Of a DNA stretch of 38,200 bases, positions 3,101-35,095 are shown in pieces. The notes beneath the pieces are model-generated. The model was not told the origin of the DNA. It saw nothing but the letters and a program-made list of their open reading frames with translations, and did not search any database. The DNA is from Hydrurus foetidus (Eukaryota): NCBI GenBank assembly GCA_900617105.1, contig UYFQ01000763.1, forward strand, positions 1-38,200, in the 5' to 3' direction. Positions within the stretch are counted from its first letter, which is position 1. The number at the start of each line of letters is the position of its first letter. Both the position numbers and the translations under genes were made by a program.

Positions 3101-3140
3101 ACACTTGATTCCAAGTAAATTCGCTGAAAATTATCGTTAA
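106..3140 (+). pseudogene. pol: gypsy pol (RT, RNase H, integrase, chromodomain), disrupted
   Basis: Motifs LRFCIDYRNLN, IDLTAGYHQ, VYLDDIII, LMTDASDYGIGG, GHGG...CPCCQK, INIDFIGP/LRSDNGSHF/NSIVERMN and FHVKWLNY...TWEP. ORFs 354-896 and 915-3140 are in the same frame, split by TGA at 894-896 (expected R of the R-x-P-F-G motif). Probable frameshift near 275-280. Confidence 0.93.
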
Positions 3141-3293: not shown

Positions 3294-3510
3294 TGTGACC
3301 CGCACAGCTGTACAGCTGTACGGGTACCGGCGTACGTTCGGTTCGGATCGGGGACGATCCGAGCCATCCGATTCATGGCTTGCCTATCTCTGTGTTTATC
3401 TGTAAGCTAAACACATCTTTAGCCAATAGCACCAGCACCATAGCTGCCTTCCTCTTGCCCCCGCGCCCGTGTCCCATCAGTCCCACCGCCGAGCCCATAG
3501 TTAGGCCACA
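3294..3510 (+). repeat. 3' LTR of gypsy copy A (217 bp)
   Basis: Starts TGTGACC and ends GGCCACA (imperfect terminal inverted repeat). About 90% identical by eye to 34879-35095. Confidence 0.92.
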
Positions 3511-5623
3511 CCACGAATGGCTTTTGCGTATGTTAGCGGAGATTCGTCGGCCGCAAGGTTTAGGGATGACACAGCTGAGGCTGATGTTGCACTAGTTCTA
3601 CTTCGTGTCACCGGTGCTTCAGGTCGCGTTTTCAACAGCGGCATTTTCTGAGCGGGGAAAGGAATATCTGGTGCGATAACTTCTGTAACTGTCGCGACAC
3701 ACGGTGCATGGGTGCTGATAGGGCTAGGCTGCAGAGCAGCTTCTATGACCTGACTATCGGTCGAATCAGACACTGGTAGGGGTAGTGGCGGTACGCTCGT
3801 GGGCTCTGATGAAAGCACCCTCTGTTCCTCGGCCGTGTGCGCTATGCGATGTGGTAATAGGTCTGGCGTATTTTCAGTCGGAGTGATGTCGAGTGCAGGA
3901 ATAGGTTCATGTGTTGGGGCGATGTCGTTTCCTGTCGGTATTTCCCGAACGTCTTCAATTGAAGCTGTAGGTGACGCAGTGTGTGGACAGAACGATTGAA
4001 CGAATGCTGTCAGATCGGCGAGCATTGTGTGCGGCGGATCATTTAATTGTCGTAGGTGCGCTGTTTCTGGGTGCGCCGCTGCTAACGTTGATATTGCACC
4101 TGCCAGATCTTTGATTGCAGCGATTGCAATGTCGTGCGGTCCGATGTTTGGTAGCAATGGTTTGTCCAGTAACCACGCTAGTGTATCTGTAACTCGTATG
4201 GATTGGGTGTCTACTGCCCAAACGCTGAAGCAGTGATAATGCTGTTGTGCTGGTCCGAGATAAAAGCCGAGTACACCATGCGACGCCCATGTACCACGAG
4301 CAGTGGGCTTATCGTGGATGATGACCTTGGTTCCTGCGGGTTCTATCGGATGCGCTCGAAAGTCGAATTGGCGGCCATGAAGTCCTTCGTACGCAGAAAT
4401 GTTTGGATTTGGGCCGTAAGGTAGAAGGTGGTTCAGACAAAGTTCTGCTTGAGGAAGAAGTTTGTCCCACAAGGTCATCGGAAAATCATTTGCCACTGTG
4501 CATAGAGTCGAGATAAAATGGTTCTTAAACGTCCTGATGGCACGTTCCGCTTTCAGTGATCTGTGTTGACCTGGTGGGCAATATTGTATTTGAATGTTGT
4601 TCTTCGCTGCAAAGGTCTCTAGTGCTGTGGACGTTTCGTTGAAAAGTCTTTGGAACAGCGGTTTGTGGCCAGCTCTATCCCAGAAGTTCATTGTGTTCCT
4701 GTAAGCGTTCACGTAATTGGATTTGTGACGTGATGCGATGGGTTCACAATGGATATATCCATCTAGAACTGAGATAAATACGTATTCGGATCCGGATAAT
4801 GCCTTGATAGGAAATCTGCCCGTTAAATCCGAATGCGCCGTTTGTGACAGAGATAGCGTCTTTGTGAAGACGGTTCCGCGCGGTAGAGGTGGATTCTCAA
4901 CTTGATCTGCATCATCAGGGTGTTCGTCCTCCGAGGTAGAGTCGAGACCCTGACAGTGTTGATCGAGGTGTCCCCTGGCTGTTGCTGCTGTCAGGGAGAG
5001 GTATGAGGTAATCATGGTGCTTGTTAACCGTGGGTATGATGCCAGATAGCCTTTCGCACTGCGCGAAGTAGGGTGGACAGTACTGGGCTGCCGAGTGCAG
5101 TATGTATGAACGTTGCAAAAGCTGCATCAGTGTCACTGCGGAGTATGGCTGATGCTGATGTGGCGACTGTAGGTGTTCCGAGTTGGACGTTCCATAAGTG
5201 GTCGGACTTGTCTTTCCTGTGGTGCAGTACAGTGTGTCCATCCTTGGTGACGTGGACGTCCTCACTAGTGAAGGTGGCTATGCATCCATTGTTACACAGC
5301 TCTGAAATGCTGACGAGTGAAACGTCTAGAGTGGCGTCAGGAAATATATGCGCTGTAAGTGGAACAGATAGATTGGGCAACCACAAGTCTCCAGCCGACG
5401 TAGAGCAGATGGTGTCACCGTTAGGTAGTGCAACGCGGATGTTGTTGTCATGACGCACGTTACGTAGGTGTGCTGCGTCCGTTTCTCGGAGTAGAATGTG
5501 GGAAGAACCAGTGTCAGCACACGGTAGGTGGGGAGCAGAGTGGGCCGATGAAGGTAAGACTGTTGGATCTGAACGAGTTTGGTTTAAGTTACCGTCCAAA
5601 ATCTTACTTTCACGGCCTACTTG
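3511..5623 (-). pseudogene. pol: copia pol (protease-integrase), frameshifted and truncated
   Basis: In frame with gag after the TGA. A 1-nt frameshift near 5050 (VRK/GYLASYPRLT; compare IRAGYLSSWPRLT in the inner element) joins ORFs 5024-5599 and 3501-5015. Confidence 0.88.
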
Positions 5624-5626
5624 TCA
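5543..5626 (-). promoter_or_regulatory. putative stop-codon readthrough signal (UGA CAA GUA plus long 3' hairpin)
   Basis: In-frame TGA at 5624-5626, a 6-nt spacer, then arms 5594-5617 and 5543-5569 that are near-perfect reverse complements. Confidence 0.7.
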
Positions 5627-6673
5627 TAGTTTGTGTGTGGAGCCATTGGCTACGTCGGTGTGATTGTTGGCTGTTTTCATTGCCGCTGTGTATTCCGGTA
5701 AAGATGCCATTTGACGGCACTGTGCACTGCTGTGCGAGTTGTAACCGTGTTTGAAACAGTAAGGTCGATTGGATGAATTGCCTTGGTTGTTTGCTTTCAC
5801 CTTGTTAGGTAAGGCAGCTGAAATTCTTTTATCTATGTACGCTGCAAACGCCGCTGACTCGAAGTATGCTGGTGTTGTATCTGTTGTAGCCGATAATGAC
5901 GCTGCGTATCCGAGGTCGATGGGTACTGAAACAAAGTTCGGAGCTTGCTCGGTGATATGGTCGACGAGTTTCAAGAAGGTTTGCTGTGCGATATGTGGAT
6001 GAGCTGTCAAATATGACGTGGTTGCTGTTGTGTACGAGATGTTAGACCCAATGGCGGCCCGCAAGTATCGACATTTATCAACCTCGGAGAGTCCCTGGTT
6101 GGCGGAAGAGAACTGGACGTGGATCAAGCGATGCTGTGCTGCTAATTCAGAAAAGGTTCTCATGCCAATTTTGACGTTAAGCTCGGTGCGGAACGCATCG
6201 AAGTCGGATGCTAAGAAGGTTCCATAACGTTCCCGTAGGTGGTCTAGTAGCTGTTGACAAGATATTGCCACCAGGCCGAAGAAGGGGTCGCTGAGTTCGT
6301 TTCTGTCAGCGTCGGATAAATTGCTGATGATTGCATTTTTCAGGACTCGAAGTGCTTCCGAAATTGCCGAGTTGCGTCTCAAGGTGATTTCATATTGCTT
6401 TAGGTTGGCAGCTAATGCACCCAACTCTGGTGGAGGCGTGAAGATTATGGTCGGTCGATCTGCGATGATAATTTCCCCTTCGTTTTCAGGGTCATCGACT
6501 GCGTTTCCTGGAAGCATGGCCCTCTGTGCCTCTGAAACGCAAAATCCCAGAAGGCCGTTCGGCCCCATATTTTCCTGGCATCTACTGCCAAACGCTGTGT
6601 TGGTCGCTCTCAAAAAGGCTTGCATGCTCTGCCTTGTGCTTGCTTTGATGTCTGGTAGGCAGACTTCTGTCAT
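5624..6673 (-). CDS. gag: copia Gag (349 aa) with C-terminal C-X2-H-X4-H-X4-C knuckle
   Basis: Intact ORF starting 15 nt after the LTR. Shares DRNELSDP, HLRERYGT and YCFKHGYNSHSSAQC-type motifs with Gag at 19392-20528. Confidence 0.88.
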   Translation of the reverse strand: MTEVCLPDIKASTRQSMQAFLRATNTAFGSRCQENMGPNGLLGFCVSEAQRAMLPGNAVDDPENEGEIIIADRPTIIFTPPPELGALAANLKQYEITLRRNSAISEALRVLKNAIISNLSDADRNELSDPFFGLVAISCQQLLDHLRERYGTFLASDFDAFRTELNVKIGMRTFSELAAQHRLIHVQFSSANQGLSEVDKCRYLRAAIGSNISYTTATTSYLTAHPHIAQQTFLKLVDHITEQAPNFVSVPIDLGYAASLSATTDTTPAYFESAAFAAYIDKRISAALPNKVKANNQGNSSNRPYCFKHGYNSHSSAQCRQMASLPEYTAAMKTANNHTDVANGSTHKL

Positions 6674-6688
6674 TTGATCTCACTCAAC

Positions 6689-6989
6689 TGTTGATACTGA
6701 GGGATCAACTGGTCTGAATCGAAGATCGTGATTCAATTTGGTTGAGTTAGATTATGTCAAAATGGTGCAGATGATCATGTGATGCAGCAGAGAAGCAATT
6801 ACCAATCGGTGATTTGTCAGTTGTCCGTAAGTGTACAATGTTCAGTGGTTGCGTATACGACTTCTACATCGTGAGATTGCTCTCTACTGTGTTTGTCGTG
6901 CAGAGATTCAAGTCTTTGTCTTGGCGAAGAAAAGCGGATTGTTTCTCCAAGTTCCGCATGCGGTGCGTACAAGTCTTGTTGTATCAACA
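6689..6989 (-). repeat. 5' LTR of copia element 1 (301 bp)
   Basis: Bounded by a perfect 9-bp terminal inverted repeat TGTTGATAC...GTATCAACA, directly upstream of gag. The partner LTR is outside the window. Confidence 0.8.
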
Positions 6990-7430
6990 CCGGGAACCGG
7001 GAACCTCAGAGTGGGGCAAACTACAAACTATTTGAATAATATTTGCAAATGATGGTGGTGCTGGAATATTACTATTTGAATATTTATCATGAATAATACA
7101 GTTAATGACAGACATATCGGAAATCTGAGCTGCACAGCTTCTGAAGATGAGCCATGACATCAGGCAAGCAGACAAAGGCAACATCATTACGCACAATGAC
7201 ACGTCAAGTAGTGATGCAAATGATGGTGGTGCTGGCTACGGTCAACGGGCTGATTTTGCTATCCTCCTCCGAGAATTCGGTCGATGACACATTGGTGGGT
7301 CGATGGCACATTTGTGACGAAAAAAAAATGCAAGGGTTTACCCCTTTCCACGACGGAAACCAAGTTCAAAAATGGGTTAGAAGGCAAATATAAAAAGGAG
7401 TAGGCAAAAGTCCGTTGATTGCGCTATCTG

Positions 7431-7845
7431 GAAGCGAGGGAGGATTCGCCGAAGTGGAATCTCCCGTTGTAGACAGATGGCCGACGAGCGATGGCCAAAG
7501 AATTATGGCCAGAGAGTTCTAGCCAATAAATGATGGCGAAGAAATGACGGCGCTCTCCACGGACAACGTCGGAAGTTCATTAACGCGAACTTGATGGCCT
7601 CGGCAATTCTCGAAGAAGAATTGCCGGCAGTTGAATGATCTCGAAGCGAGGGAGGATTCGCCGACGTAGAAGCTCCCGTTGTAATAGGTGACCAAGAAAT
7701 GATGGCGCTTTCCATAGACAACGTCGGAAATCCGTTAACGCGGGGGAAGTTGATGGCCTCGGTAATTCTCGAAGATGAATTGCCAGCAGTTGGATAATCT
7801 CGAGGCGAGGGAGGATTCGCCGAGTTGGAATCTCCCGCTGTAACT
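7431..7845. repeat. imperfect tandem repeat (two ~157-bp units plus a partial third)
   Basis: GCGAGGGAGGATTCGCCGA-type core near 7434, 7646 and 7805. Segment 7541-7664 aligns with 7696-7823. Confidence 0.75.
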
Positions 7846-14958: not shown

Positions 14959-15230
14959 TGTTGTATATTACATACGTAGCACTGGTGTTGGTACGAGGTG
15001 TACGTGCACAGGCGACACTTCGTGGGTGATTTGTTACGTGCGCGACACTTTGAATGCGTGATCGAAAATACATATACTAGTTTGAAGTTGCGAACTGTAA
15101 ACTTTGTGGGCATGCTCGTGCGTCTTGCTCCACAAGTTTTAATAACAAGTCATTGATCACAGAGACCATTTTACGAGCCTTGAGAAGATTTCCGTGTAGC
15201 GAATCTTACAGAAATCCGAGTTTCTCAACA
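14959..15230 (+). repeat. 5' LTR of outer copia (272 bp)
   Basis: TGTTG...CAACA; duplicate at 25275-25546. Confidence 0.97.
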
Positions 15231-15240
15231 TATTAAAACT
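15231..15240 (+). promoter_or_regulatory. non-tRNA, self-complementary primer-binding site of outer copia
   Basis: TATTAAAACT is the exact reverse complement of AGTTTTAATA at 15135-15144 inside the LTR. Confidence 0.7.
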
Positions 15241-18200
15241 AGCAGGAGCCATTGTGATGCCTCCCAAACGCGCCGGTGAACCAAAGGAAGCGCCAGAATG
15301 CATTCTGAGAATTGGAAAGTACAACAATGTTGTAGCTTGGAACTTGGAAATGCGATCTGTTGTGGGAACCCTGTATGGGTCCACAGCCAACTTCCTCACC
15401 GATAACCTGAGATACGTCCCGCCCTTTCCTACGGAAGAGGACTATATTCCTGTCAACCCAGCACTCGCGGAAGGAGTGGCTCCTGCTTCCATGCCAGCTG
15501 CGCTACTTGCAAAGCTACGGGAGGACTGCTTCACTGGGAGACGCAAAGAGATTGCGCAGCAACGCAAAGACGAGCAGAAGATTTGGTCACTCATGTGGAC
15601 ACGCATGTCTCCTGCCTCGCAGAGCAAAGTCCAGGAGGAGCCTGGATACGCCGCCGCGCTATTGGCGCGTGACTGCGTACTGCTGTGGGAGTACATACGG
15701 CGTACTCACCTGACGCATATTTACGGGGAGGGAGACCCTATGCTTGCCCTGAACATTCAGGACCAGGAACAAAGGTACAATGCTATCAAACAGGGGGACA
15801 AAGAGTATGTGTCCAACTTCAAGCTGCAGTTCGACGCTCAAGTCCAGGCGTGCAGGGGTGCTGGGATGGCTGAAATCACAGAACCGAAACGTGCCCTAGA
15901 CTTCATATACAAACTAGACCCAAAGAGATTTAGCAAGATGGTCGCGTTCATGAGGAACAATGCACTATGCATGGAGGGCGAGGCCTTCCCACAGACCCTG
16001 GCGGCCGCGTGCCGTATAGCATCCGGCTGGGTAAACGAAGATACCGGCGGGCCCCAGATCCCAGGATCCGAAACCCACTCTGCTTTTGCCACTGAGGAAA
16101 CGAACTTGGTAACGAAGTCTAAGGACCCTGAGAAAGGCAAACGAAGTACGACCAAGAACGACACAACTGCCAAGAAGAAATCTTCCACGGATGTGGAGTG
16201 CTTCGTGTGCGGCGAAATCGGTCACTACGCTAGAGATTGTCCGCTGAAGAAAGGGTCTGCACGCGCTCTCATGGCAGCTACAAGCGCTGTGAACAACAAA
16301 CGAGACTCATCCGACGACGATGAGGTTGCCTATATCACCTCCGCGGAAATGGTGCTGTTCTCAAGAGACGACGTTCTGTTAGACAGTCAGGCGTCCGTCA
16401 ATGTTTTCTGCAACGAGAAGCTGCTCAAGAATATGAGAAAGTCTGAGAAGCGAGTCGTGCTAAACGGCGTCCAAGCCAAAGCCGACGGTGTGATCATAGA
16501 GCTCGAAGGAGATTTCGGTGTGGTTGGAAAAGTATACTTCAGTAAAGACTCGACGGCTAACATCCTGTCCTACGCTGTTATGGTTGATCAAGGCAACGAC
16601 GTCAGCTATGACAAAATCAACGATCGTTTCCTGTTGAAGCCACTCGGAAGTACAAACGTGTATTCCTTCAGTAGGAAGCAAGTAAGCGGAAGTGAAGGTC
16701 GGTTTTACTGCTGCAATGTTACTTCGATGATGGAAGATCGCACGATCAGATATCCTGTAGCAGAACATGCACTCATCGAAACAACGGCTGAAAACATGCA
16801 GAGGTACTCTAAGAGAGAAATTGATTGCGCCAATCGGGCTAGGAAGTTACTGAGCAAAATGGGATTCCCGCCGGTTATTCAAGCGATGAACATCGTGGGC
16901 CGAGGAAGGAAGTTCGATGTGACGGCTCGAGATTTCATAGTGGCGGATGCTATATATGGGAAGGATATTGCTTCTATGAAAGGAAGAACAACTAAGAGTG
17001 CTACGAAGATTGCTGACATTACAATTGGAGCAGCTATCGTACAACAGGAGCAAATACTTTCAATCGACATTATGTACGTAGACGGAGTGGCATCGCTGAT
17101 CGGTCTTGCCAGTCCGTTGGATCTAACCATGGCGGTATCGCTGCTGTCATTCGACACCCTGCAGAGTTCGAGATCAGCAGTAGTTGTAAAGAAGGGGTTG
17201 GATGGATTTATCTCCACTTTAGCATCAAGGAGTTTTGTCACGAGATTGATAATGAGTGATGGGGAGGGAGCCATCGGTGCTATCAAAGATGATCTGAACA
17301 ACCTTGGTATAGAGGTTGACGTCAGCGGGGCTGGCGGTCACGTGGCTAGGATCGAAAGAAGGATCCGAACGGTGAAAGAAAGAGTAAGAGCTTTCATATC
17401 ACATGAACTGCCGTTCACCCTCACTGCTCTGGGCGTAGCCATGCTGGTTCTATTCTGCGTGTCGAGAATTAATTATCAGACATCTGAGTCAAGACATGGT
17501 GAGGATTGTCCGCGCGTAGTATTTACCGGGAGACAAGTTGACGCTAGACTGGATTACAGGATCGGATTCGGAGAATACGCACAGTGTACTGTGCCCAACA
17601 CTGATGCGACGATGGCAGCGAGAACCGAGGATTGCGTAGCTATGCTGCCGACTGGAAATAGAACTGGTTCTGTGAAGATGATGTCAATCAGCACTGGCAG
17701 GCTGGTAACTCGCGACCAGTTCACGATACTTCCTATGCCATCATCAGTTATTGACAAGCTGAACGATATGGCTGTTGCCGAAGGAAGGAAGGTCGTCGTT
17801 AATAGAAACATGGTGTATGGTATACAGAGTGGATTACGAAAAGCAGATGATCCTACATACATGAGATCGTTTGAAGTCGTTACGGTAGACCCGGCGGTTA
17901 CGGCCAACAGTACTACAACAGAGGACGCGTATGAGTTTCCTCAGTTTCCATCGATAGATCAGCAAACGCTTGGGGACGACGTCGGCGTAGGACGAGAGGC
18001 GGAAGCGGAGATGCGGAATACAGACTATTATGACATGCCAGATTTAGATGTGGGACCACTGATTGAGTTTGAACCATATGTCGAATCCAACGCCAACCCT
18101 GATGCGTCAGTGCCAGTGACGCCACCGAGATCTGTTCTCACTCCTGTGTACACGAGATATAAAGCAGCTGCACAGCGGAGCCCACCACTGAATAGAGATC

Positions 18201-19223
18201 TAATGCACTACTACAACGCGAACGATGCTGTGCTGACGAGTGCACTTGCAGATACGGGAGTACGCAACGAGCATGTTATGAACATCTCAGTGAAGGAAGC
18301 ATTGAGAAGTAGGGGTGCGGAGGCCGAAAGGGTAATACTTATGGAGCTTTCCCAGATGATAGACAAAAAAGTATGGACGCCTGTACATATCGGAGTGCTG
18401 TCGGGTACGGAAAAACGCGGGATTATCCGTTCTCAAATGTTCCTGAAGGAAAAATACTTACCGACGGGGGTGTTCGAAAAGCTGAAGGCGCGTCTGGTTG
18501 CTGGCGGGAATCAGCAGGATAAGGACTTGTATGACGACTTGTCGTCTCCCACGGTCTCTACTAGCGCGGTGATGACCGTGTTCGCGATAGCGGCATATGA
18601 GAAGAGAAATGTGTCGGTTGTAGATATCGGAGGAGCTTTCCTGAATGCGACTATGGACACAGGAATTACAGTGTATATGAGACTAGACAAGACCATGTCG
18701 CTCATGGTGTGTAAGATCGATAAAGGATATGCAGATTACGTGGATGACAAGGGATGTGTCGTTGTCCGACTTGATAAAGCGCTCTACGGGTGTGTGGAAT
18801 CGGCAGCATTATGGTACGAGAACCTGTCAGAAGCGTTTAAGACGTGTGGATATGAGAAGAATAAGTACGAGGTATGCGTGTACAATAAACGGAACGAGAA
18901 GGGAATTCAGTGTACTGTGGCCGTGCACGTGGACGACCTTATCATATCCAGTGTAGATGGGGGGATGATTGATGCACTGTGTGACAACCTTAGGAGAAGA
19001 TATGGAATCATTACACGCGCTGATGGGCCTGTTGTGAATTATCTCGGTATGGTCTTTGACCTTACCGTACCTGGGGAAGTAAGAATGACTATGCGCGGAT
19101 ATGTGGAGGATACTATAGCGTATGCTGGTGTACCGGGTACGGCCAAGAGTCCGGCCACGGACGGCCTGTTTGATACTCGAGATGAGGCGGTTGCAGCTGC
19201 AGAGAATGAAAGCTTGTGGTTTC

Positions 19224-19381
19224 TGTTCATGTATGTACAATCATTCGATCTTGACCTCGATCTGCACTTCAATCTGTCTCTGTGCTTTCATTCTCGCTTC
19301 CTTCATAAGTTAATCTAAACCAACGTAAACTTGCCCATCAGTTTACTGAACGTTCTTCAGGTTGCTTCCACTGGTTCAACA
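19224..19381 (+). repeat. 5' LTR of inner copia (158 bp)
   Basis: TGTT...AACA; duplicate at 24364-24525. Confidence 0.96.
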
Positions 19382-19392
19382 GTTTAGATTAA
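19382..19392 (+). promoter_or_regulatory. non-tRNA, self-complementary primer-binding site of inner copia
   Basis: GTTTAGATTAA is the exact reverse complement of TTAATCTAAAC at 19310-19320 inside the LTR. Confidence 0.75.
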
Positions 19393-20528
19393 TGACAGAC
19401 ACAGTCCCGTTCATTACACTCACAAAAGAAAATTTTGCCGAATTTCAAAGGCAAGTCTATGACTATGCGTCAAGCATTTGCCTAGACAACGGTTTTCTAA
19501 CTCATCGGCATGGGCTGCTCTCTTTCGTTGTCACAAACGAAATATGGCAAAATTTGCCTGGAAACGCAGTTCAAGACGACGCAGTGCCGCCCAATATCAT
19601 TCTTCGCCCACGAGATGTTCTCACTCCTCCCGAAATTCCAGCTGAGAACGCCAATGCATGGCGAGTATTTGAATACAGAACAAAAGAATTCGACAAGGTA
19701 GCAGTCGCAGTCCTCCTCCTTACAAGACGCCTCAAGGATGCTTTACCAGCATCAGATCGCAACGAGCTTTCGGATCCGATATTGGGCATGGGCCAATTGA
19801 CCGCATTGCAACTCATGACCCACCTACGCACACAGTATGGTACATTAACATCTGAAGACTTCAAAGCTTTGCACGCACAGTTGACACACAAGCTGGACTC
19901 TGCAACTAACTTCACTGGGTTCGCTGCCGACCAGCGGTTCATTTTCCAACAATTAGCTGCATATGGTCAGCCAATTCCAGAACTCCAGAAATGTGATTTT
20001 CTCCGCAATGGAACTTGCCATCTGTTTCCAGTGCAAAAAGCCATCGATTCCTACCTTACCGCTCATCCGCACACGGCCAACCAAACTTTCAATAACTTGG
20101 TTGCCCACATCACACTGCATTCTCCAAACTTTTCCCAGTCCACTGGAGACATGGGATACACTGCCGCGGCAACCCACATCAATCCAGTTCCAACGTCTGA
20201 AATCTCCTCAACAGTTGCAACACTTCTACTCTCGCCTACCTTCCTCACTGCGTTGGCAACAGCTGCCGCAGCTGCAGCCATCTCTCCTCCACCACGGTCT
20301 CCACGCCCGTCCCGGGCAGGCCGTGGAGGGCGTGGTCAACTCAAAACACCTAACCCATCCACAACAGACTCACAACGTCCCTACTGTTACGCCCATGGAT
20401 ACAATGCTCACTCAAGTGCTGACTGCTACAAAATGCGCTATAGCCCTCTTGCCAAAAACTACACAGATGAGGCACGATTGGCCACCAGTCACACCTCAGT
20501 CGCTGGCGGATCAATTATGCGCTTGTGA
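19392..20528 (+). CDS. gag: copia Gag (378 aa) with C-X2-H-X4-H-X4-C knuckle
   Basis: ATG 10 nt after the LTR (MTDTVP, compare MTEVCL in element 1). Contains YCYAHGYNAHSSADC and ends at an in-frame TGA. Confidence 0.88.
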   Translation: MTDTVPFITLTKENFAEFQRQVYDYASSICLDNGFLTHRHGLLSFVVTNEIWQNLPGNAVQDDAVPPNIILRPRDVLTPPEIPAENANAWRVFEYRTKEFDKVAVAVLLLTRRLKDALPASDRNELSDPILGMGQLTALQLMTHLRTQYGTLTSEDFKALHAQLTHKLDSATNFTGFAADQRFIFQQLAAYGQPIPELQKCDFLRNGTCHLFPVQKAIDSYLTAHPHTANQTFNNLVAHITLHSPNFSQSTGDMGYTAAATHINPVPTSEISSTVATLLLSPTFLTALATAAAAAAISPPPRSPRPSRAGRGGRGQLKTPNPSTTDSQRPYCYAHGYNAHSSADCYKMRYSPLAKNYTDEARLATSHTSVAGGSIMRL

Positions 20529-20610
20529 CGGCTAGGCTTGAGAAGTGATGTGCCTGATGCCACTGTAACTAACACAGTCGATTGCAATCCACCACATCTT
20601 TCTTTCGCCT
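20526..20610 (+). promoter_or_regulatory. putative stop-codon readthrough signal (UGA CGG CUA plus long 3' hairpin)
   Basis: In-frame TGA at 20526-20528. Hairpin 20534-20610 with stacked helices AGGC/GCCT, GAGAAG/TTTCTT, GATGTG/CACATC and ACTGT/ACAGT. Confidence 0.7.
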
Positions 20611-23600
20611 TTTCAGCACCTAAGCTCGCATGCAGCGACACAGGATCCACAAACCTTTTAGTAAGACAATCTGATGCCTCTGCTGTCATCATCGATCCTC
20701 ACCTACAGCCTATTTCAGTAACTCTTCCCAATGGCTCCACCATTAGCTCAAGTTTCAGTGGGACGTTGCTCTTCCCAAATCTTCCTTACCCTATAAATGC
20801 CTACATTTTCCCCGACAAAGTCCTTCATACTTCGCTATTAAGTGTCAGTGAACTTTGTAATGTCGGATGCCTCGCCACATTTACCGACACGCAGTTTCAC
20901 GTTACATACAACAACTCAACAGTCCTACACGGCATCAAAGCAACGTCCGACACACTATGGACGGCCCAACTACCGACACAATCTGCAGCTGCATCGACGC
21001 ACACCACTTCATCTCACGCGGCACGCCTTACCGCAGACGCTGAGTTTGTTTTATTCGTGCACGCTTCCCTAGGCAGCCCGGTCTACTCTACCTTCTTGCG
21101 CGCCATTCGAGCTGGTTACTTATCGTCATGGCCCCGACTCACAACAAACATCGTCTTAGCCCATCCACCACACACAATCGCGACAGCCAAAGGCCACTTT
21201 AATCAATTGCGACAAGGTTTGGACTCTACCAAGACAGACGCAGTCTGTCCAACGACTGATAATGACGATAGTCCGGAGTTACCTCTTACAGCTGAGTCTG
21301 CTAACCATACTTACGTCAAGATGGTTCGTCTCCCACACACCGTCAGCTCCGATTTAACTGGAAAGTTTCCTGTTCAGGCTGACAGTGGCGCACAGTACAT
21401 CCTCATTTCGGAAATGGATGGATATATTCATGCGGAACCCTTAGCATCGCGCCATCACACAGCTTACATCTCAAGCTTTACGCGAACAATCTCTTTCTTC
21501 ACCGCCCTAGGCCGTATCCCCTTCTTCCTACGACTAGATAATGAAACGTCCGCACCACTCGATGTGTTCATGAAGCGGCAAAGCATCAAGATGCAATACT
21601 GTCCACCGGGTATGCATCGATCGAATAGAGCAGAAAGGAGCATCCAAACATTCAAGAATCATGCAATAGCAACACTCTGCACAACCTCAAAAGACTTTCC
21701 TCTCACGTTATGGGATCGTCTATTACCTCAAATCGAACTCTGTTTAAACCATTTACACCCTTATAAACCAAACCCAACGATCTCAGCATACGCCGGTCTG
21801 CACGGTGGAGCTCATGACTTTAGAGCCAATCCGATCGGACCAGCCGGTGCTAAAATTCTCATACATGATAAACCCAGCACTCGGGGATCGTGGGCTCCGC
21901 ATGGAGTTGCAGGTTTCTATCTTGGTCCTGCTCCACAACATTACAGATGCTTCACAGTGTGGTCATCATCAACAAATGCAGTGCGGATCACCGACACACT
22001 CGTCTGGTTTCTCGACAATCTACAGCTGCCGAATCCCTCTGTTCATGATCTACTTCTTGCCGCAATTCATGATCTCACCACCGCCATCAATACCATCACA
22101 AGTGCCCACCCCGCTCTCCATCACCATCGTCAGCTCAGCAATATTCCAAATCTCACTCAACAACTTCATGACATCGCATCTTTATACAATCCTCCTCCGA
22201 ACGTACCTATATTGCCGATCAATGCTGTCGCTGATCCTCCCGATGCCACGGAACAGAGGGTGCACATCCCTCAGGCACCACTTTTGACCCATCTCACTTT
22301 ACCGGCAGTCTCCCAACACCCACTTACACCCACTCCCACTACGGAACAGAGGGTACCTGTTACTGATAGTGTGCCCTCCCCTCCATCGAAGTCTCAGAGT
22401 TCCAACATCGACAATCTCCCAAATGTTCCTCTCCTACCTTCCCAAAACCCACCCACAGTACCAAAACCACCGTCCCCGCCAGTAACTCGACAGCACACTG
22501 CGCGTCTGCGCGCTCATGCTGCACTTAATTTGGCTGCAGATGGCAGCCCTCTTACATACTCTAAAGCAAAAGCTGGGCCTGATGCTGCACGGTGGTTACA
22601 AGCCGAGGCGGAAGAGTTTGATCGCCTGATTACGTCACACACGATAAAACCCATCCATCAGTGCGATCAACCACATGATCGCCGTCGGGATACTACCTAC
22701 TTCAATCCGCAAACAAAACAAAAGATAGATTCTGGTGGTTCCACTACCTATCGCATTCGTGGCACAGCTGGAGGAGACAAAATCAATTACACTGGACCTA
22801 CATCAGCGCAAACAGCTGCCATGCCAGTCGTCAAGCTTCTGCTTCATTCCGTCGTCTCCGAGCACAAACAATGGATGACAATTGATATCAAAGATTATTA
22901 CCTCAACACTCCCCTACTGCGTCCTGAATTCATCCGGATCCCATGTCGCATGATACCCGACACTACAATCGCTACCCACAGTCTCATACCGTATGTCCAT
23001 CAAAATGCGATTCTTTTTGAAGTCAATAAGGGTATGTACGGCCTGCCCCAGGCAGGACTATTGACACAGCAACGCTTAATTGCCCATCTCGCCAACCATG
23101 GCTACCATGAGACATCCACTCCCTGTCTGTTTAGGCACACCTCCAACGGCACTGCTTTCACTCTCGTGATCGATGACTTTGGAATAAAATATTCGTCTAA
23201 GGCTGGAGCTGACTATCTTATTCGCACCCTTCAACTTCTTTACGTTATCACCATCAATTGGACCGGGTCCACATACATCGGATTTACGATTGTTTTCAAC
23301 AATACATCCCGCCAAGTTTCCCTCACAATGCCCGGCTACATCAGCAAAGTATTAGAGCGATTTGCTCCGCACCTTTGTCTCGGTGCTGCCTCTCCAGCCG
23401 TCTACATTCCTCCATCATATGGTGCCCCTACACAAAACGTTACTTCCGACACCTCACCACTGTTACCGCCATTAGCCATCAAAAGACTTCAGGAGCAAGT
23501 CGGTTGCCTGCTTTACTATGCCAGAGGAGTTGATGCTACCATACTTCCAGCAGTCAACCACATCGCCTCCCTACAATCTCAACCTACCGACATCGTTGCT

Positions 23601-24258
23601 GCTGCTATGGATCGTCTTCTTCAGTATTGTGCTCGCTACCCCGACAACGCACTCGTTTTCACGGCCTGCGATATGCGACTCTTTATGCGCTTCATACCTT
23701 TCCCGTCCGAAGGCACGCTCCGTCGCAGGTGGCATTTTCTACCTTGGCAACAACAACCAACCAACAACTATCAACGGTCCCTGTCTAACTCTTAGTACCA
23801 TCATTCCTGTAGTCGTATCATCTGTTGCTGAAGCAGAGTATGCAGCAGTGTTTATGAATGCCAAAGAGGGGGCCTCTATCCGAGCTATTCTCGACAGTCT
23901 CGGCTACCCACAACCTACAACCGACATTCTGTGTGACAACATGTGCGCTGTTGGTCTCGCCTCCGATACTGTCACTCCCAAGAAAACAAAATCGATCGAT
24001 ATGCAGTTTCACTGGATAAGAGATAGAGTTCGTCAGAAACAATTCAGTGTCACTTGGCGTCAAGGAGCGCACAACTTGGCTGACTTCTTCACGAAGGCCC
24101 TCCCAGTGCATCTTCATCGCACCCTTATGCCTTTTCTCGTCAGCATCCCGCCAACACCTAGCACAAAGTTTCAAAGCTCACAAGCTCGTCGCTCATGTGC
24201 GTGGAAAATGCTTCGTCACTATGCGAGAAATCATGACTGCAAATTGCTATCTGAGTAA
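20529..24258 (+). pseudogene. pol: copia Pol (PR-IN-RT-RNase H), frameshifted at the start of RNase H
   Basis: SDTGST, SDLTGKFP/RLDNETS/RAERSIQTFKNH, YRIRGTAGGDKI, TIDIKDYYL, KGMYGLPQAG, LVIDDFG, SSVAEAEY, CDN and NLADFFTK. The frame changes near 23688, where the expected x-S-D before ASYLS is missing. Confidence 0.92.
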
Positions 24259-24363
24259 TATAACTAGTAATTTTGTTAAAGCACTTCACTTTGTTGATTA
24301 CGCTCAAAATTCCTTAGTATGGCTTATTCTTCATTCATTGGCACATTACAGCTTGAGAGGGTG

Positions 24364-24525
24364 TGTTCATGTATGTACATACAATCATCCGATCTTGACC
24401 TCGATCTGCACTTCAATCTGTCTCTGTGCTTTCATTCTCGCTTCCTTCATAAGTTAATCTAAACCAACGTAAACTTGCCCATCAGTTTACTGAACGTTCT
24501 TCAGGTTGCTTCCACTGGTTCAACA
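24364..24525 (+). repeat. 3' LTR of inner copia (162 bp)
   Basis: Direct repeat of 19224-19381, followed by TSD GTTTC. Confidence 0.96.
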
Positions 24526-25274
24526 GTTTCATAGTGTAGTTGCCAAACTGAGTTATCTAGCAAAACGTGCAAAGCCAGAGTGCCTGACCGCTGTTGCATA
24601 TCTGGCTACGAGAGTCACCAAGTGTACTGAGGATGACTTAGAGAAGTTGAAGCGTGTGCTGAGATATGTAGCGAATACTCGTGAAAAAGGGGTTGTGCTC
24701 AGACCAGGGGTGATGGGAATATGCGTGAGAGTATACGTGGATGCGGCGTACGGGGTGCACAGTGATGGGAAGTCACATTCGGGGAGTTGCATTGTCATAG
24801 GAGATGTTGGATCAGTGCACTGTAAATCGAGTAAACAGAGCATAGTTACTAAGTCCAGTACAGAAGCTGAGCTGGTAGCGTTATCAGACTCAGCCAATCA
24901 AGGCTTATACTTGCGCAATTTCCTGAAAGAGCAAGGACACTCGATGGGACCAGTAATCATATATCAAGACAACACGTCGTGCATGGCGCTTGTTGCTAGA
25001 GGGAGATCTGGTGCAGAGAGGACAAGGCATATCGGAATCAGATATTTCTGGTTACAAGAGAGAATCGAAACTGGAGAAGCGGTTGTGGAGTACAAGGGTA
25101 CAAAGGAGATGTATGCTAACATTCTCACTAAACATCTGCAGGGCTCTCAATTCATTTACGAAAGGGATTCCCTAACGGGGTGGATTTGAGGAGAGATATT
25201 TTGCCTGACGAGTAGGCCGCAATATAAATGATATGCTATGCAAACTGTTTGAATACTAGCCAGTACTAGGGGTG

Positions 25275-25546
25275 TGTTGTATATTACATACGTAGCACTG
25301 GTGTTGGTACGAGGTGTACGTGCACAGGCGACACTTCGTGGGTGATTTGTTACGTGCGCGACACTTTGAATGCGTGATCGAAAATACATATACTAGTTTG
25401 AAGTTGCGAACTGTAAACTTTGTGGGCATGCTCGTGCGTCTTGCTCCACAAGTTTTAATAACAAGTCATTGATCACAGAGACCATTTTACGAGCCTTGAG
25501 AAGATTTCCGTGTAGCGAATCTTACAGAAATCCAAGTTTCTCAACA
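25275..25546 (+). repeat. 3' LTR of outer copia (272 bp)
   Basis: Direct repeat of 14959-15230, preceded by AGGGGTG and followed by TSD ACCCG. Confidence 0.97.
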
Positions 25547-26279: not shown

Positions 26280-28808
26280 CTATGGGGAGGTTAAGGTTTT
26301 AGTTTGACCCAAGGTCTTCCCCCTGAGGGCGTACCATTGCCGTTTAAAATAATTCAGTCGGGAGAAAATAGCGCGTTTAATGCGAGACCCCCACGTCCTC
26401 ACTATGTTAGTCGTGATTTCGAATAACAGCGCTTGACCGCCTCTGCTTTGAAGAAACTGCTTGCAAATCATAGATATTTGTTCGTCACCCATTTTATCTC
26501 CTTTTTTGACGTAGGACACGGTAGCCCCGGTGTCTTTCGACATACTGCCATCTGCCGCACATGCTAGGGGAGAGTTCATGTTGGCGTCCATGCTGGCCCT
26601 GGAGGCGTCTTTTAGGAACCGTCTGAGCCTCTTCCACCTAGGCAGGTACAGGCCGCTGTCCCTATCCAGGCGCAGTATGAGGGAGCGAAACACCGCCTTG
26701 GTCTTGCCTGACGCCACCTCCTGTCCTGCAGCAGACCCGAGTCGCTTGTCCGTGTCGTCATGCAGATTCACATACGCTCTCTCCACTACCGCTGCTGCTG
26801 CTGCAGTGTATGAGATGGTGATGGGTTTCACAGTCCTGGCCTGCTTATCCACGCCGCTGAAGTCGGACAGCACTTTGCGCAGAACGTACGGGTACACCAC
26901 TTCCAGTAGACTGAAGTTCGGATCAGCGGTCAGCGCCATGCCCTCCAGAGATCCGATGGCACGCACATTATTCAAGAAGTAAGGAGGAACGGTAAAGCTG
27001 AAACGAGTCGCTACGGCGAATAGCGCGGAAATGATTTCGTCGAATTTTACTCGGGGTATCGGTGTGGCAACATCTTCTTCCTCGTCCTCACCAAAAGCAG
27101 AGGAAGAAGAAGAAGTAGTGGAGTCTCCAGAACGTTTCTTGCTAGTGGTGCTCATTTCTAGGAATGCTAGAAAAGCAATGAAGACGCTCAAGAGAGGGTT
27201 CCTTAGGAACTTTCTCACGCCCTTGGACAGTCGTACTAAAAATGCTTCTGGCAGAATCTCCGTAGGAACAATTCTTCCGACCGCAACAGCAAAGTCTAGA
27301 GACACTTTGTCCTTTTCTTTCTGTGCGAATGTTTGCATTTGTTCGTTGTGTCTGGGAGAGAAGTCAAGGACTTGTTCTGCTACTTCGGAGAGAGCGATTT
27401 CGAATGCCTTGAGATCCACTTGAAGTGCGTCACTGGGCATGAGCATCAGTGAGTCGAACTCCCTCGCAAGTGCGCTGTAATTCCTCTCGATCAAATGCAC
27501 CACGCTGCACACTAGCGCTTCTCTGACAGATATGGGCACAGTCGCCACTAGTCCAAAGTCCAGGTAGGCGAGTTTGCCTCCGGGTCCTTTCAAGAGGTTC
27601 CCCCCATGGGGATCCGCATGCAGTACCCCGGTCTCTAATATCTGACTCAGAGTGCACTGTATTCCAAGCTGCACCAATGGGAGGTCTGACGCAGACACAG
27701 TTGCGTCCTTTCTGATCAGTTTTTCTCCTTCCAGCCAAGTCATCGTTAGAACTCTTTCAGAGCACAGTGTAGGGAGTAGTTTTGGCACCAGAATGCCTGG
27801 GGATGGAAGAGTTTCGGACGCAGTTCCATTTTCAGAGTACAAAGCAGAGAACTTAAGAAGGTTATTCGCTTCGTTGATGTAGTCCAGTTCCTCGAACAGT
27901 CTGGATGCGTACTCGTCCACTGCTCCTACTCCGTCAGATCGCAATATCCCAGTCTCCGTCAAAAATATTGCGCCCCACCGGGCCAGGAGAAAATCAGCAG
28001 CAACTTGCTCTCGTAATTTTGGCCTCTGAATTTTCACAGCAATGTCAATCCCGTTGACGCGCGCTCTGTATACCTGTCCCAGAGATGCTGCAGCTATCGG
28101 CAGGGCGGAGAGGGTGCTCAACAGCTGGTCCACCATGTCGTCACTCTCCCCAGCAGCTGTGAGATCCTGCCTAATAATCTCTCTAGCCTCCTCCGTAGAA
28201 AATGTCGAAGGTATCGCATCCTGCAACAACTGAAGCTGACTGATGCCTTCGAGTCCGATCAGGTCTTGTCTTGATGATAGCGCTTGGCCTAGTTTGATAA
28301 AAGTTGGACCCATTCGAATCATCGAATCTCTAACAGCGCCAGCTAGCTTCACCTTGCTTTTGTTCAACGCTGTTTTATCTAATAATGTGCGACTAGAAAC
28401 ACTTTCTTCCATAAAGACATCCATTCCAGCGACGAATATTGTCCCCACTTCACCCAGTATCTGTACTAGTCTACCAATCACCAAAGATGGATTGCGCGTA
28501 AAATATGAGGATATATCGCTTGAGTTGTAAACAACTGATAGCATCTTGTGTGGCTCAGCTCTCGAGTGTCTATCAGTCATGACGTGAGTATCATCTGCGG
28601 GAGAGAAAGACACCGCAGAAGGGGAGAGAGTCGCTCCATCATTTGCAGGTCCTACTGTCACCTCATTATTGGTCAGCGTTCTGGCACATCTTAATGGTTC
28701 ACTTTGCATAGATGGTAGAAAATGTCTGTATCCGTGAGCAACAAAAAGGATGTGCGCATAGATAATCGTTCTGAAGCAAGAATGGAATTTCATTTCGTAG
28801 GTGGGCAT
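26280..28808 (-). CDS. ABC1/UbiB-family atypical protein kinase (ABC1K), probably plastid-targeted
   Basis: 842-aa uninterrupted ORF with GPTFIKLGQ, PIAAASLGQVYRA, AVKIQRP, EELDYINEANN, LHADPHGGN and YLDFGLV. The true start could be the second Met (MKFHS). Confidence 0.93.
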   Translation of the reverse strand: MPTYEMKFHSCFRTIIYAHILFVAHGYRHFLPSMQSEPLRCARTLTNNEVTVGPANDGATLSPSAVSFSPADDTHVMTDRHSRAEPHKMLSVVYNSSDISSYFTRNPSLVIGRLVQILGEVGTIFVAGMDVFMEESVSSRTLLDKTALNKSKVKLAGAVRDSMIRMGPTFIKLGQALSSRQDLIGLEGISQLQLLQDAIPSTFSTEEAREIIRQDLTAAGESDDMVDQLLSTLSALPIAAASLGQVYRARVNGIDIAVKIQRPKLREQVAADFLLARWGAIFLTETGILRSDGVGAVDEYASRLFEELDYINEANNLLKFSALYSENGTASETLPSPGILVPKLLPTLCSERVLTMTWLEGEKLIRKDATVSASDLPLVQLGIQCTLSQILETGVLHADPHGGNLLKGPGGKLAYLDFGLVATVPISVREALVCSVVHLIERNYSALAREFDSLMLMPSDALQVDLKAFEIALSEVAEQVLDFSPRHNEQMQTFAQKEKDKVSLDFAVAVGRIVPTEILPEAFLVRLSKGVRKFLRNPLLSVFIAFLAFLEMSTTSKKRSGDSTTSSSSSAFGEDEEEDVATPIPRVKFDEIISALFAVATRFSFTVPPYFLNNVRAIGSLEGMALTADPNFSLLEVVYPYVLRKVLSDFSGVDKQARTVKPITISYTAAAAAVVERAYVNLHDDTDKRLGSAAGQEVASGKTKAVFRSLILRLDRDSGLYLPRWKRLRRFLKDASRASMDANMNSPLACAADGSMSKDTGATVSYVKKGDKMGDEQISMICKQFLQSRGGQALLFEITTNIVRTWGSRIKRAIFSRLNYFKRQWYALRGKTLGQTKTLTSP

Positions 28809-29064
28809 GCTATTTGCGGCGTCGAATTGCCACTCCCCGCTCTCACAATGGTGCGGCTGAGTAGCTGATGCCTCTTTGTACGTGCCCTGTCTCCGATATC
28901 ACTGTTATTAAGAGTTGAGTTGCAAGATATTCAGCGAACTTTGATTCTTCACAAGATCCGGGAGCCGACAACCAGGCCACTCAATATGGCGTGCCAAACT
29001 GTTCAAAATTATTTTTTCCCGGATTTTGAAAAAATTTCCCGGATTTTCATCTCGGTCAATTAGA

Positions 29065-30614: not shown

Positions 30615-30894
30615 TTGATTTATAACTTGCATTGTTACAATTGGTTTTTGTATTGTGTACTCCACTACGATCGAGAGGTACAAAAATCAGGATACAAAAA
30701 AAGGAAAAATAAATATGCTTCGAAAGTATGAGAATATAAGTTGAAACTTGTTAATATAATTATGTGAATAGATTTAACGATAAATAAAGTTTGAAATTTT
30801 GTATGTTTATTTTGTACTCCACTACAATCGAACGGATACAAAATAAGAATGAATAAATACAATACATGATAGACAAGGACTTAAAAACATTAAC

Positions 30895-31879: not shown

Positions 31880-33763
31880 CTCAAATCAACTTTCAGATGT
31901 TGAATTGATGTTGATTAGGAGGAGCTGTTAGTAATATAAATATTTTTTTTCTAATTATGTACCTGTACAATCGAGGTACAAAAAAGCTCAAGAATTTTGT
32001 CACAAGGGGCCTGTTTTGTACCTCGACAAAACAGGAAATTTACTTTTTTTTAATTTTTTTGTTTTTTGTACTCCACTACAATCAAGAATACAAGTAAGAG
32101 GTACAAAACAGGAATTTTGTATTTTGTATTTTGTACTCCACTGGGACCGACCTTAGAATCGGATTTCGGTTTTTGAAATCCAATTCTGACTTTTTCGATT
32201 TCCGACGCGGAGATTGTCGAAAAATAGGCCGAATTTCCGACAATCTCCGCGTCGGAAATCGAAATAGTCATAATTGGATTTCTGTTTTTGAAATCCAATT
32301 CTGACTTTCCCTGAAATCTGACACCGTAAGGACCGGCCTCAAAGTCGAAGGGGACGAATTTTAGTTTGTGTTTTTCTTTCCGGTTTGGAATGTCGTTCGA
32401 TTTTCAGTTTTTTTAGTACATATGGGTTTCTCCGGCCACTGGGATCTTGGACTGTACGGAGGGATCAGATGCATTTTTCAAATCATTAGATGTCAATTTT
32501 CTTTTTATCAGATCTAAAGTTTATCTGAGGTTCATGAGATGTCTCGCCTCGAAGTACCATCACGATGTCACCTCATGACCAATAACAATTCAGGGACAGT
32601 TCAGACGACTCTGAAAATTTGGAGGATTAAAAAGGATCATATTTTATACAGCGCCTACAGATTTCAGCGAGCAATTTCGACTACAAAGTGCGTAAATCGA
32701 TGCAACGGTGACATCAATCATGAATCTTGAAATGTCCATCCTATCTACGAATCCTCAGGTCACGTGCCTTTCTAATGAAGCCACTTCTTTTGTAATTCTG
32801 ATAATAGGTTTCAATACTGTACTCTTGCTGGTCAACAGGGATTGCTTGGCGTAGGCTGTTGAGTGAATTTTTAGAATCACGATGAGTAGGTCGCTGACAA
32901 TATTTTGTGTCGCGCCCGATCCGAATTTCATCTGCCGATTGCTTTCAAAACGATTGAGCTATTGTAATTCAACGATTCTCAAATTGTAATGAATTACTTA
33001 CCGCCCAATAAGTCATATTTATTTCATCTACCGGGAACTCTCCATCACCTTTTACTGACAAACTCTCCGTAATTTCATCTGATATAGTTTGGTTTATTTA
33101 ATTGGACTCATCATTAATTTGTTTGCTCATTTCCATCGCAAGGCATTCCTAATCCACATCTATTCCATTCACTATTGTCATGTCCTTATTGATTGTAACA
33201 GTATTTTCAATACTGTTGTCATCCATTATATGATCCGCTCCTTTTTCGTTATGATCACTATTTTTGCTAAATTGAAATCAATGTGATAATATAATAAATA
33301 AGAAATAGTCGAATTGATAAGAATTGACAAAAGTTATAACAATTGTTTAATACAGTTGGACAAAAAGTAACATGTAAGGCTTCTTGTCAGCGATCCCTAC
33401 AATTTGAGTTGTCAGCCGATTAAAATCTCCATCCAGCCAAAAAAAGTATTGCCCAAAGACGAACATAAAATTTCTGCCACCTGAGAGAAGATCGCTGGCA
33501 CCAAAGAATCTGATGAAGCCTCCGTCCAACTGCTAATCACGACTGACGCTCCGATTGAGGAATGATATTGTGTCGGATGTCGAATAGTTGACGCTTGCTG
33601 ACAACTTCGGCTGGTGGGACGCAGTCCGTACAGTCCATACAGCATCATGTTGGGGCGGAAATGGGGATCTTGGGACCGGTTACAGCGAGAAGCAAGGGAC
33701 CGGTTACAGAGAGAACAGCAAAATTCGTTTTATACGGTGTTTTTCGTTACTTTCGACCGATTT

Positions 33764-33939
33764 TACCTAGTACAACTTACGTTTTTAGAAAAAAGAACCT
33801 CCGGCACAAAAGGCCGGAAAAAATTCTACCGGGACCAGTTACAGCGAGAAGTACCTAGTACAACTTACGTTTTTAGAAAAAAGAACCTCCGGCACAAAAG
33901 GCCGGAAAAAATTCTACCGGGACCAGTTACAGCGAGAAG
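33764..33939. repeat. exact 88-bp tandem duplication in the subterminal region of the TIR element
   Basis: 33764-33851 = 33852-33939. The GGGACC[AG]GTTACAG[CA]GAGAA motif also occurs near 33672 and 33697. Confidence 0.92.
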
Positions 33940-34013
33940 TCGTCAAATCCGGGAAATTTTTTCAAAATCCGGGAAAAAATAATTTTGAACAGTTTGGCAC
34001 GCCATACTCAACG

Positions 34014-34878: not shown

Positions 34879-35095
34879 TGTGACCCGCACAGCTGTACAG
34901 CTGTACGGGTACAGGCGTACGTTCGGTTCGGATCGGGGACGATCCGAGCCATCCGATTCATGACTTGCCTATCGCTGTGTTTATCTGTAAGCTAACCACA
35001 TCTCTTTAGCAACAGCACCAGCACACCAGCTGCCTTCCCCTTGCCCACGCGTCCCGTTCCATCAGACCCACCGCTGAACCCAGAGTTAGGCCATA
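34879..35095 (+). repeat. 5' LTR of gypsy copy B
   Basis: TGTGACC...GGCCATA (terminal CA appears as TA); aligns end to end with 3294-3510. Confidence 0.9.

What the first reader, a model, noticed from the sequence alone, without database searches (positions are those of the whole stretch)
19310..19392. Tf1-like self-priming PBS in the inner copia element
Seen: no TGG-starting tRNA PBS follows the 5' LTR. The 11 nt immediately after it (GTTTAGATTAA, zero spacer, overlapping the A of the gag ATG) pair perfectly with TTAATCTAAAC at 19310-19320, and the duplex stops exactly at the LTR boundary. The 61-nt loop holds two more hairpins (GTAAACT/AGTTTAC, CTGAA/TTCAG). Known: S. pombe Tf1, a gypsy element, primes by pairing its first 11 transcript bases with the PBS and cleaving them off in an RNase H-dependent step. 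From memory, a similar loop was proposed for the diatom copia Blackbeard, so the idea may not be new for CoDi-I and should be checked. Inference: the TSS is at about 19310 and C19320 supplies the primer 3'-OH.
Basis: partly seen in the sequence, partly recalled or inferred. Interest (0 to 1): 0.75.

Follow-up and report, generated by a model that had tools for sequence, protein, structure and literature searches.

The report
Self-priming copia retrotransposons in a chrysophyte
Three copia-type jumping genes in what is likely a golden-alga (chrysophyte) genome each carry, where a host tRNA normally binds, a site that instead pairs with a piece of their own terminal repeat, and 21 of 22 testable relatives keep this pairing with different letters, so they likely start copying themselves with the front end of their own RNA.

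Summary
Confirmed. The 11 nt after the inner element's 5' LTR (19382-19392) are the exact complement of 19310-19320; the duplex ends at the terminal CA, fixed by both LTRs and a GTTTC TSD. The outer copia (RT 22% identical) and a third, truncated copia in the window show the same geometry with different letters. Of 24 testable 5' ends (window and relatives), 23 have a 9-16 nt perfect LTR:PBS duplex starting at the LTR end; all 23 PBS 10-mers differ; 2 of 506 cross-element pairings reach 10 nt. An initiator-like CA sits 15-17 nt before the predicted primer end in 19 of 22, suggesting a TSS at 19305-19310. Best reading: Tf1-like self-priming (0.75), without Tf1's leader duplex. No RNA start, cleavage or host-tRNA set was available. 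The host is likely a chrysophyte. Self-priming is shown for Tf1 and predicted for plant TAR copia; the Blackbeard recollection was not found in print. This scan noted the same signature 32 times, the listed notes in diatom or diatom-type elements. New here: chrysophyte host and two very distant copia lineages.

The parts
19219..19223 (+). 5' target-site duplication GTTTC of the inner element (repeat at 24526-24530)
   Evidence: outer ORF is open across the empty site
19224..19381 (+). inner copia 5' LTR, 158 nt, TGTT...AACA
19303..19307 (+). initiator-like TCATA; predicted TSS at A19305 or T19306 (inferred)
   Evidence: CA at -15..-17 from the primer 3' end in 19 of 22 elements, null maximum 14 in 2000; fits the diatom TCAHW consensus of PMC4686930
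19310..19320 (+). predicted self-primer, paired part; C19320 would give the 3'-OH
   Evidence: exact complement of the PBS; unchanged in a sister family with 16 differences in 19264-19396
19325..19346 (+). 7-bp hairpin in the loop (GTAAACT/AGTTTAC)
   Evidence: in MFE and centroid; the common A19340G variant keeps a G-U pair
19382..19392 (+). primer-binding site, zero spacer, non-tRNA type, ends on the A of the gag ATG
19392..20528 (+). inner gag, 378 aa, ends in TGA followed by CGG and in-frame pol
20529..24258 (+). inner pol (PR-IN-RT-RH order); one frameshift near 23700 at the start of RNase H in this copy
   Evidence: RVT_2 match below Pfam's cut-off; two-frame match to P0370 at 96-98%
24355..24363 (+). 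polypurine tract GAGAGGGTG
   Evidence: GGGTG precedes the LTR in the uncut relatives
24364..24525 (+). inner 3' LTR, 162 nt
14959..15230 (+). outer copia 5' LTR, 272 nt; TSD ACCCG
15135..15144 (+). outer predicted self-primer (paired part)
   Evidence: exact complement of 15231-15240; 1 of 100 shuffles reaches 10
15231..15240 (+). outer PBS; the variant A15241T seen in contigs of three runs would extend the duplex to 12 bp
15257..25189 (+). outer gag-pol, single ORF interrupted by the inner element (19224-24530)
25275..25546 (+). outer 3' LTR (one substitution against the 5' LTR)
6689..6989 (-). 5' LTR of a third, truncated inner-lineage copia (9-bp terminal inverted repeat; no second LTR found in the window)
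6741..6752 (-). third element's predicted self-primer, 11 of 12 complementary to its PBS
   Evidence: 8 of 5000 shuffles reach 11 of 12
6677..6688 (-). third element's PBS, zero spacer, 3 nt before the gag ATG at 6673

Best explanation
The 11 nt after the 5' LTR pair with a stretch of the same LTR that likely lies at the 5' end of the element's RNA, so the element likely primes reverse transcription with its own RNA rather than a tRNA. Steps: (1) transcription would start at the initiator-like TCATA (19305-19306, at the latest 19310) [inferred]; (2) the 5' end folds onto the PBS as an 11-bp duplex closing a 61-nt loop [complementarity shown, folding predicted]; (3) a cut after C19320, probably dependent on the element's RNase H as in Tf1, would free a 3'-OH [inferred from Tf1 only]; (4) RT would extend it from A19381, the exact LTR end, giving a minus-strand end at the terminal CA [register shown, synthesis inferred]. 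The same arrangement holds in a second, very distant copia lineage (the outer element). This copy is frameshifted at the start of RNase H and would need an intact family member in trans.
For: Exact 11-nt complement anchored at a two-LTR-defined end. Three window elements, three different PBS, each matching its own LTR at 11 of 12 and the other two LTRs at 6-9 of 12. 19 of 20 inner-lineage and 4 of 4 outer-lineage 5' ends have a 9-16 nt perfect duplex starting right after CA/TA; in 20 of 24 at most 1 of 100 shuffles matches it. All 23 PBS 10-mers are distinct, mean 3.7 of 10 letters shared; cross-element control: 2 of 506 reach 10 nt, none 11. In the 19 passing inner-lineage elements, PBS positions 1-9 pair in 19 of 19, the last two LTR bases in 4 and 1 of 19, and pairing drops after position 12. 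Sister pairs show changes on both sides: one in L007/L008, three in L013/L017. Initiator-like CA at -15..-17 in 19 of 22, TCA in 16 of 22; 0 of 2000 position-scanned nulls reach either. A sister family has 16 differences in 133 nt and none in the 22 paired bases (p about 0.05). The LTR end is independently backed by a terminal inverted repeat of at least 4 nt in 12 of 18 uncut elements.
Against: No RNA evidence: no raw RNA reads were offered, and the one RNA run has no contig over the LTR. The host tRNA set was not available. L024 fails (6 nt; broken gag), and L012, L018, L019 are weak against shuffles (4, 8, 30 of 100). One LTR-only contig in two runs carries two changes in the primer segment with no matching PBS seen. 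The leader:loop duplex that Tf1 needs is absent (mean 3.4 bp against a null of 3.8) and U5-end pairing is only slightly above null (4.6 against 3.9). If the TSS is the initiator A, 3-6 5' bases stay unpaired in the inner lineage (18 of 55 tail positions pair), unlike Tf1. For most relatives the LTR end was read as the CA/TA next to the stem, not from a second LTR.
Confidence: 0.75

Rival explanations
1. The primer is element-derived but works in trans: a short RNA or the 5' end of the second packaged RNA (or a transcript from a 3' or solo LTR) anneals to the PBS, with no cis loop or no Tf1-type cut.
For: Explains the covariation and the register equally well; no pretzel duplex; loop length varies from 36 to 205 nt.
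Against: The cis duplex forms with mean probability 0.86 or more in 20 of 22 folded elements; a free 3'-OH at a fixed 15-17 nt from the initiator still needs a cut or a precise stop.
Confidence: 0.11
2. The duplex is a regulatory or packaging hairpin (for example hiding the gag start), and priming uses another, unidentified RNA or site.
For: Here the PBS overlaps the gag AUG; no biochemical data.
Against: The AUG lies 10-110 nt from the LTR end in the 23 passing elements, while the duplex edge is fixed at the LTR end; such a hairpin would have no reason to respect that base.
Confidence: 0.08
3. Priming by a host tRNA 3' end or half-tRNA; the LTR match is secondary.
For: Half-tRNA priming is known in copia (Osser, Bryco, Bianca; PMC6317226 passages). 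The host tRNAs were not searched. TGG occurs within the first 8 nt in 2 of 23 PBS, and 2 of 23 fit a loose anticodon-loop pattern.
Against: 23 distinct PBS, none starting with TGG; the inner and outer window PBS fit neither pattern; tRNA priming does not predict a match in the element's own LTR.
Confidence: 0.04
4. Chance AT-rich complementarity.
For: The stems are AT-rich; the whole-region folding z-score is only -1.34.
Against: 1.2e-4 expected matches; 23 of 24 elements; cross control 2 of 506.
Confidence: 0.01

Closest known systems
Tf1/Tf2 (S. pombe), Tj1 (S. japonicus), Tosmo/Tcry and the Tf1/sushi group (Ty3/gypsy chromoviruses)
   Same: [quoted passage not shown]
   Different: Copia domain order and RVT_2-type RT; no leader:loop duplex of the three-duplex 'pretzel' described in bioRxiv 10.1101/2022.12.06.519325 (passages; tested); possibly 3-6 unpaired 5' bases; nothing shown experimentally.
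Plant TAR-lineage copia (Houba, Osr-1, Fourf)
   Same: Copia elements for which self-priming is predicted from a 10-nt or longer LTR complement starting 0-5 nt after the LTR (PMC6317226 passages); all three tested criteria of that rule are met by the inner and outer elements.
   Different: Plant hosts; relationship to either lineage here not tested (no named reference sequences were held); also a prediction only.
Diatom CoDi copia groups, including Blackbeard (PMC2806351)
   Same: Stramenopile copia; LTRs from 153 nt, some families with longer terminal repeats or without TG/CA; one or no stop or frameshift between gag and pol.
   Different: The paper's main text says nothing on priming (word searches); the host here is likely a chrysophyte; membership untested.
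Fungal GalEa copia with a Conserved Hairpin Site (PMC5445492)
   Same: Copia elements with no tRNA PBS (passages).
   Different: There the site is a conserved palindromic 9-mer and the authors found no LTR complement; here the site is variable and always complementary to the LTR.

Membership tests
Ty1/copia LTR retrotransposon | Two LTRs with TG...CA, TSD and PPT | tested here: met
Ty1/copia LTR retrotransposon | Integrase before an RVT_2-type RT and RNase H | tested here: met
   RVT_2 match at pol residues 751-956 (E 3.5e-5, below Pfam's cut-off); most close homologues carry PF07727; the integrase position is read from the translation, not from a Pfam match
Tf1-type self-priming mechanism | PBS complementary to an LTR segment instead of a tRNA | tested here: met
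Tf1-type self-priming mechanism | The complementary segment is the 5' end of the transcript | tested here: inconclusive
   Initiator-like motif at a fixed distance; no RNA starts available
Tf1-type self-priming mechanism | Three-duplex 'pretzel' (PBS-flanking sequences pair with the loop) | tested here: not met
   Leader:loop 3.4 bp against null 3.8; U5-end:loop 4.6 against 3.9, perfect helices only
Tf1-type self-priming mechanism | RNase H-dependent cleavage after the primer | not testable with these tools
   needs biochemistry; this copy's RNase H is frameshifted
Tf1/sushi group (as a clade) | Ty3/gypsy chromovirus with RT-RH-IN order | tested here: not met
   copia order and RVT_2
tRNA- or half-tRNA-primed copia | PBS begins with TGG or matches an anticodon arm | tested here: not met
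   0 of 23 start with TGG; the inner and outer window PBS fit neither pattern; pattern test only
tRNA- or half-tRNA-primed copia | PBS matches a real host tRNA | not testable with these tools
   no genome held; no tRNA in the window
CoDi-I / CoDi-II / CoDi6 or plant TAR clade | RT phylogeny with named members | not testable with these tools
   no named reference RT among the listed hits; motif search of PMC2774666 supplements found none; the tree holds unnamed relatives only

The most novel reading that the evidence does not exclude
Self-priming is the ancestral and prevailing priming mode of deep stramenopile copia lineages: two lineages with 22% identical RT share it, using a capped 15-17 nt primer measured from the initiator and a pretzel-free cut. 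That would make the hypothesis that hairpin priming preceded tRNA priming in LTR retrotransposons (PMC3601003 passages) directly testable in copia.
Probability: 0.2. Interest if true: 0.75.

Novelty: new variant of a known kind. Interest (0 to 1): 0.52.

Why it matters
tRNA-independent priming has been shown by experiment only in the gypsy-type Tf1 group and predicted for one plant copia lineage, as far as the papers read here go. Finding the signature in two very distant copia lineages of a chrysophyte, without the Tf1 pretzel, suggests either repeated invention or great age of the mechanism, and offers short, naturally varied substrates to learn what a copia RT/RNase H needs to cut its own primer. 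It also explains why PBS finders based on tRNA libraries would miss such elements.

Tried and rejected
No whole genome is held, so no copy census or host tRNA search. Four viral-contig scans gave no relatives. The run search offered Logan contigs only; the single RNA run has no contig over the inner LTR, which is not evidence either way. Loci left out of the counts: 9 of 28 inner-lineage loci (L004, L006, L015, L016, L020, L022, L025, L026, L027: no usable 5' LTR; L020 is the L019 family) and 13 of 16 genome-contig loci (12 without a usable 5' end; L033 duplicates L032 and served only to fix its LTR end). L034's LTR start was not located. The second loop hairpin and a conserved pretzel were considered and rejected. 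PDB and Pfam searches did not recognise the RNase H segments. The tree is the quick version; the careful search did not finish, and no named references or outgroup were included, so it shows distance, not origin. The primary Tf1 papers were not held; Tf1 details come from passages of secondary papers. Literature searches listed no paper proposing self-priming in stramenopile copia; one search was uninformative because 'codi' matched 'coding'; subscription papers and the supplement of PMC2806351 were not seen and may bear on this. Look-ups of earlier scan notes by outer RT sequence, by place and with 'chrysophyte' found none.

Full report
Anatomy. The finding lies at the 5' end of a 5.3-kb copia element (19224-24525) inserted in the RT region of a second copia (14959-25546). 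The inner LTRs (158 and 162 nt) differ by one substitution and a 4-nt indel and are flanked by GTTTC; the outer LTRs (272 nt) differ by one substitution and are flanked by ACCCG. The outer ORF is open across the empty site. Inner gag ends in TGA with pol in frame, and pol carries one frameshift near 23700 against a 96-98% identical relative. The neighbouring ABC1 kinase is 70% identical to a protein of Hydrurales sp. CCMP1899, and the one named close relative of inner pol is from Spumella vulgaris, so the host is likely a chrysophyte.

The observation. 19382-19392 is the exact complement of 19310-19320 with zero spacer and a 61-nt loop. About 1.2e-4 such matches are expected in this LTR, and 0 of 100 shuffles reach 11 bp. 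Whole-region folding is unremarkable (z -1.34), but the primer:PBS pairs have mean probability 0.96.

Within the window. The outer element has the same geometry: 15231-15240 pairs with 15135-15144, and contigs of three runs carry A15241T, which would extend the duplex to 12 bp. A third, truncated element on the minus strand pairs 11 of 12 (6688-6677 with 6752-6741; 8 of 5000 shuffles). Each PBS matches its own LTR at 11 of 12 and the other two at 6-9 of 12. Inner and outer RT are 22% identical.

Relatives. One metagenome scan gave 28 inner-lineage loci (34-48% identical in integrase), of which 19 had a usable 5' end; one scan of genome contigs gave 16 loci, of which 3 distinct ones had. With the two window elements, 23 of 24 show a perfect 9-16 nt duplex whose 3' arm starts right after a CA or TA (in 7 of the 23 the stem also includes the terminal A). 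L024, with a broken gag, fails; L012, L018 and L019 are weak against shuffles. All 23 PBS 10-mers differ and none starts with TGG. A PBS tested against another element's LTR reaches 10 nt in 2 of 506 cases, one of them a sister pair. In the 19 passing inner-lineage elements, positions 1-9 always pair, the last two LTR bases rarely do, and pairing falls off after position 12. The LTR end is fixed by a second LTR for the two window elements, L007 and L032/L033, and backed by a terminal inverted repeat of 4 nt or more in 12 of 18 uncut elements; for the rest it was read from the stem. Among close copies, a sister family differs at 16 of 133 positions and at none of the 22 paired ones (p about 0.05); one LTR-only contig, seen in two runs, has two changes in the primer segment with no matching PBS found. 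These metagenome loci may be the same ones that earlier scan notes used, so agreement with those notes is not independent support.

Where the RNA starts. CA lies with its A 15-17 nt before the predicted primer end in 19 of 22 elements (TCA in 16); none of 2000 position-scanned nulls reaches this. The motif fits the diatom TCAH(+1)W proposal (PMC4686930, passages) and resembles the oomycete INR YCAYTYY, which maps slightly upstream of the TSS (PMC3599244, passages). In three outer-lineage relatives the duplex starts at that A or one base later; in the inner lineage 3-6 bases lie between and pair about as chance would (18 of 55). So the TSS is predicted at 19305-19310, and 19305/19306 fits the motif best. 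No RNA data tested this.

Mechanism. Most likely (0.75): the RNA 5' end anneals to the PBS, is cut after C19320 and primes minus-strand synthesis at the terminal CA. Complementarity, register and covariation are shown; TSS, cleavage and the role of RNase H are inferred from Tf1 (PMC7175516, passages). Rivals: an element-derived primer in trans (0.11), a non-priming hairpin (0.08), tRNA or half-tRNA priming (0.04; host tRNAs not searchable), chance (0.01).

Comparison. It works like Tf1 but is not a Tf1/sushi member, and it lacks the leader:loop duplex of the 'pretzel' described for Tf1 and relatives (bioRxiv 10.1101/2022.12.06.519325, passages; tested, perfect helices only). Self-priming was already predicted for plant TAR copia (PMC6317226, passages). 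Fungal GalEa lack a PBS but show no LTR complement (PMC5445492, passages). The recalled Blackbeard loop is not in the main text of PMC2806351 (word searches, passages and section 18); its supplement could not be read. Also seen as passages: PMC4600332, PMC3601003, PMC3977881, PMC2774666 with a search of its supplements, PMC5029228. The original Levin papers were not held. CoDi and TAR membership could not be tested for lack of named sequences. The zero-spacer comparison with Ty1 and the readthrough context are recalled, not from a call.

Verdict. A real, well-conserved self-priming signature; a new variant of a known mechanism. The scan noted it 32 times in at least 6 other genomes, the listed notes in diatom or diatom-type elements; none was found with 'chrysophyte' or by the outer RT sequence. 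Added here: a likely chrysophyte host, three elements in one window, two lineages with 22% identical RT, and the missing pretzel duplex. Interest 0.52.

Noticed in passing
window 20526-20531; L001-L023 gag-pol junctions: gag ends in a stop with pol in frame in all 18 junctions printed (16 TGA, 2 TAG); 7 read TGA-CGG, which I recall as a readthrough context. The third window element also has TGA with in-frame pol. Suggests stop-codon readthrough in this copia lineage.
   Followed up: partly
L011, L017, L018, L019, L021: A subset of inner-lineage LTRs begins TATT and ends TA instead of TG...CA, with the same PPT and the same self-complementary PBS.
   Followed up: partly
window 19219-19223 and 19382-19385: The TSD (GTTTC) and the PBS (GTTTAG) share their first four letters, which makes repeat finders extend the LTR to 19385; probably coincidence.
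   Followed up: partly
window 3483-6989, - strand: Third copia of the inner lineage with gag, protease and integrase (about 45% identical to inner-family pol) but no RT; truncated.
   Followed up: partly
window 267-3140: Ty3/gypsy pol with chromodomain, one stop in RT; its 5' end was not located.
   Followed up: no
window 3294-3418 and 34879-35003: 125-nt repeat, 97% identical, 31.6 kb apart; nature unknown.
   Followed up: no
window 26280-28898, - strand: ABC1/UbiB kinase; closest named relative 70% identical from Hydrurales sp. CCMP1899, other named stramenopiles 36-47%.
   Followed up: yes
L029-L044: Eukaryotic copia contigs sit inside bacterial MAGs of the genome collection, presumably binning contamination.
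   Followed up: no
window 7426-7843, 30636-30857, 32052-32308, 33764-33940: Short dispersed and tandem repeats (159-nt period; 88-nt exact duplication; a TGTACTCCACTAC family).
   Followed up: no
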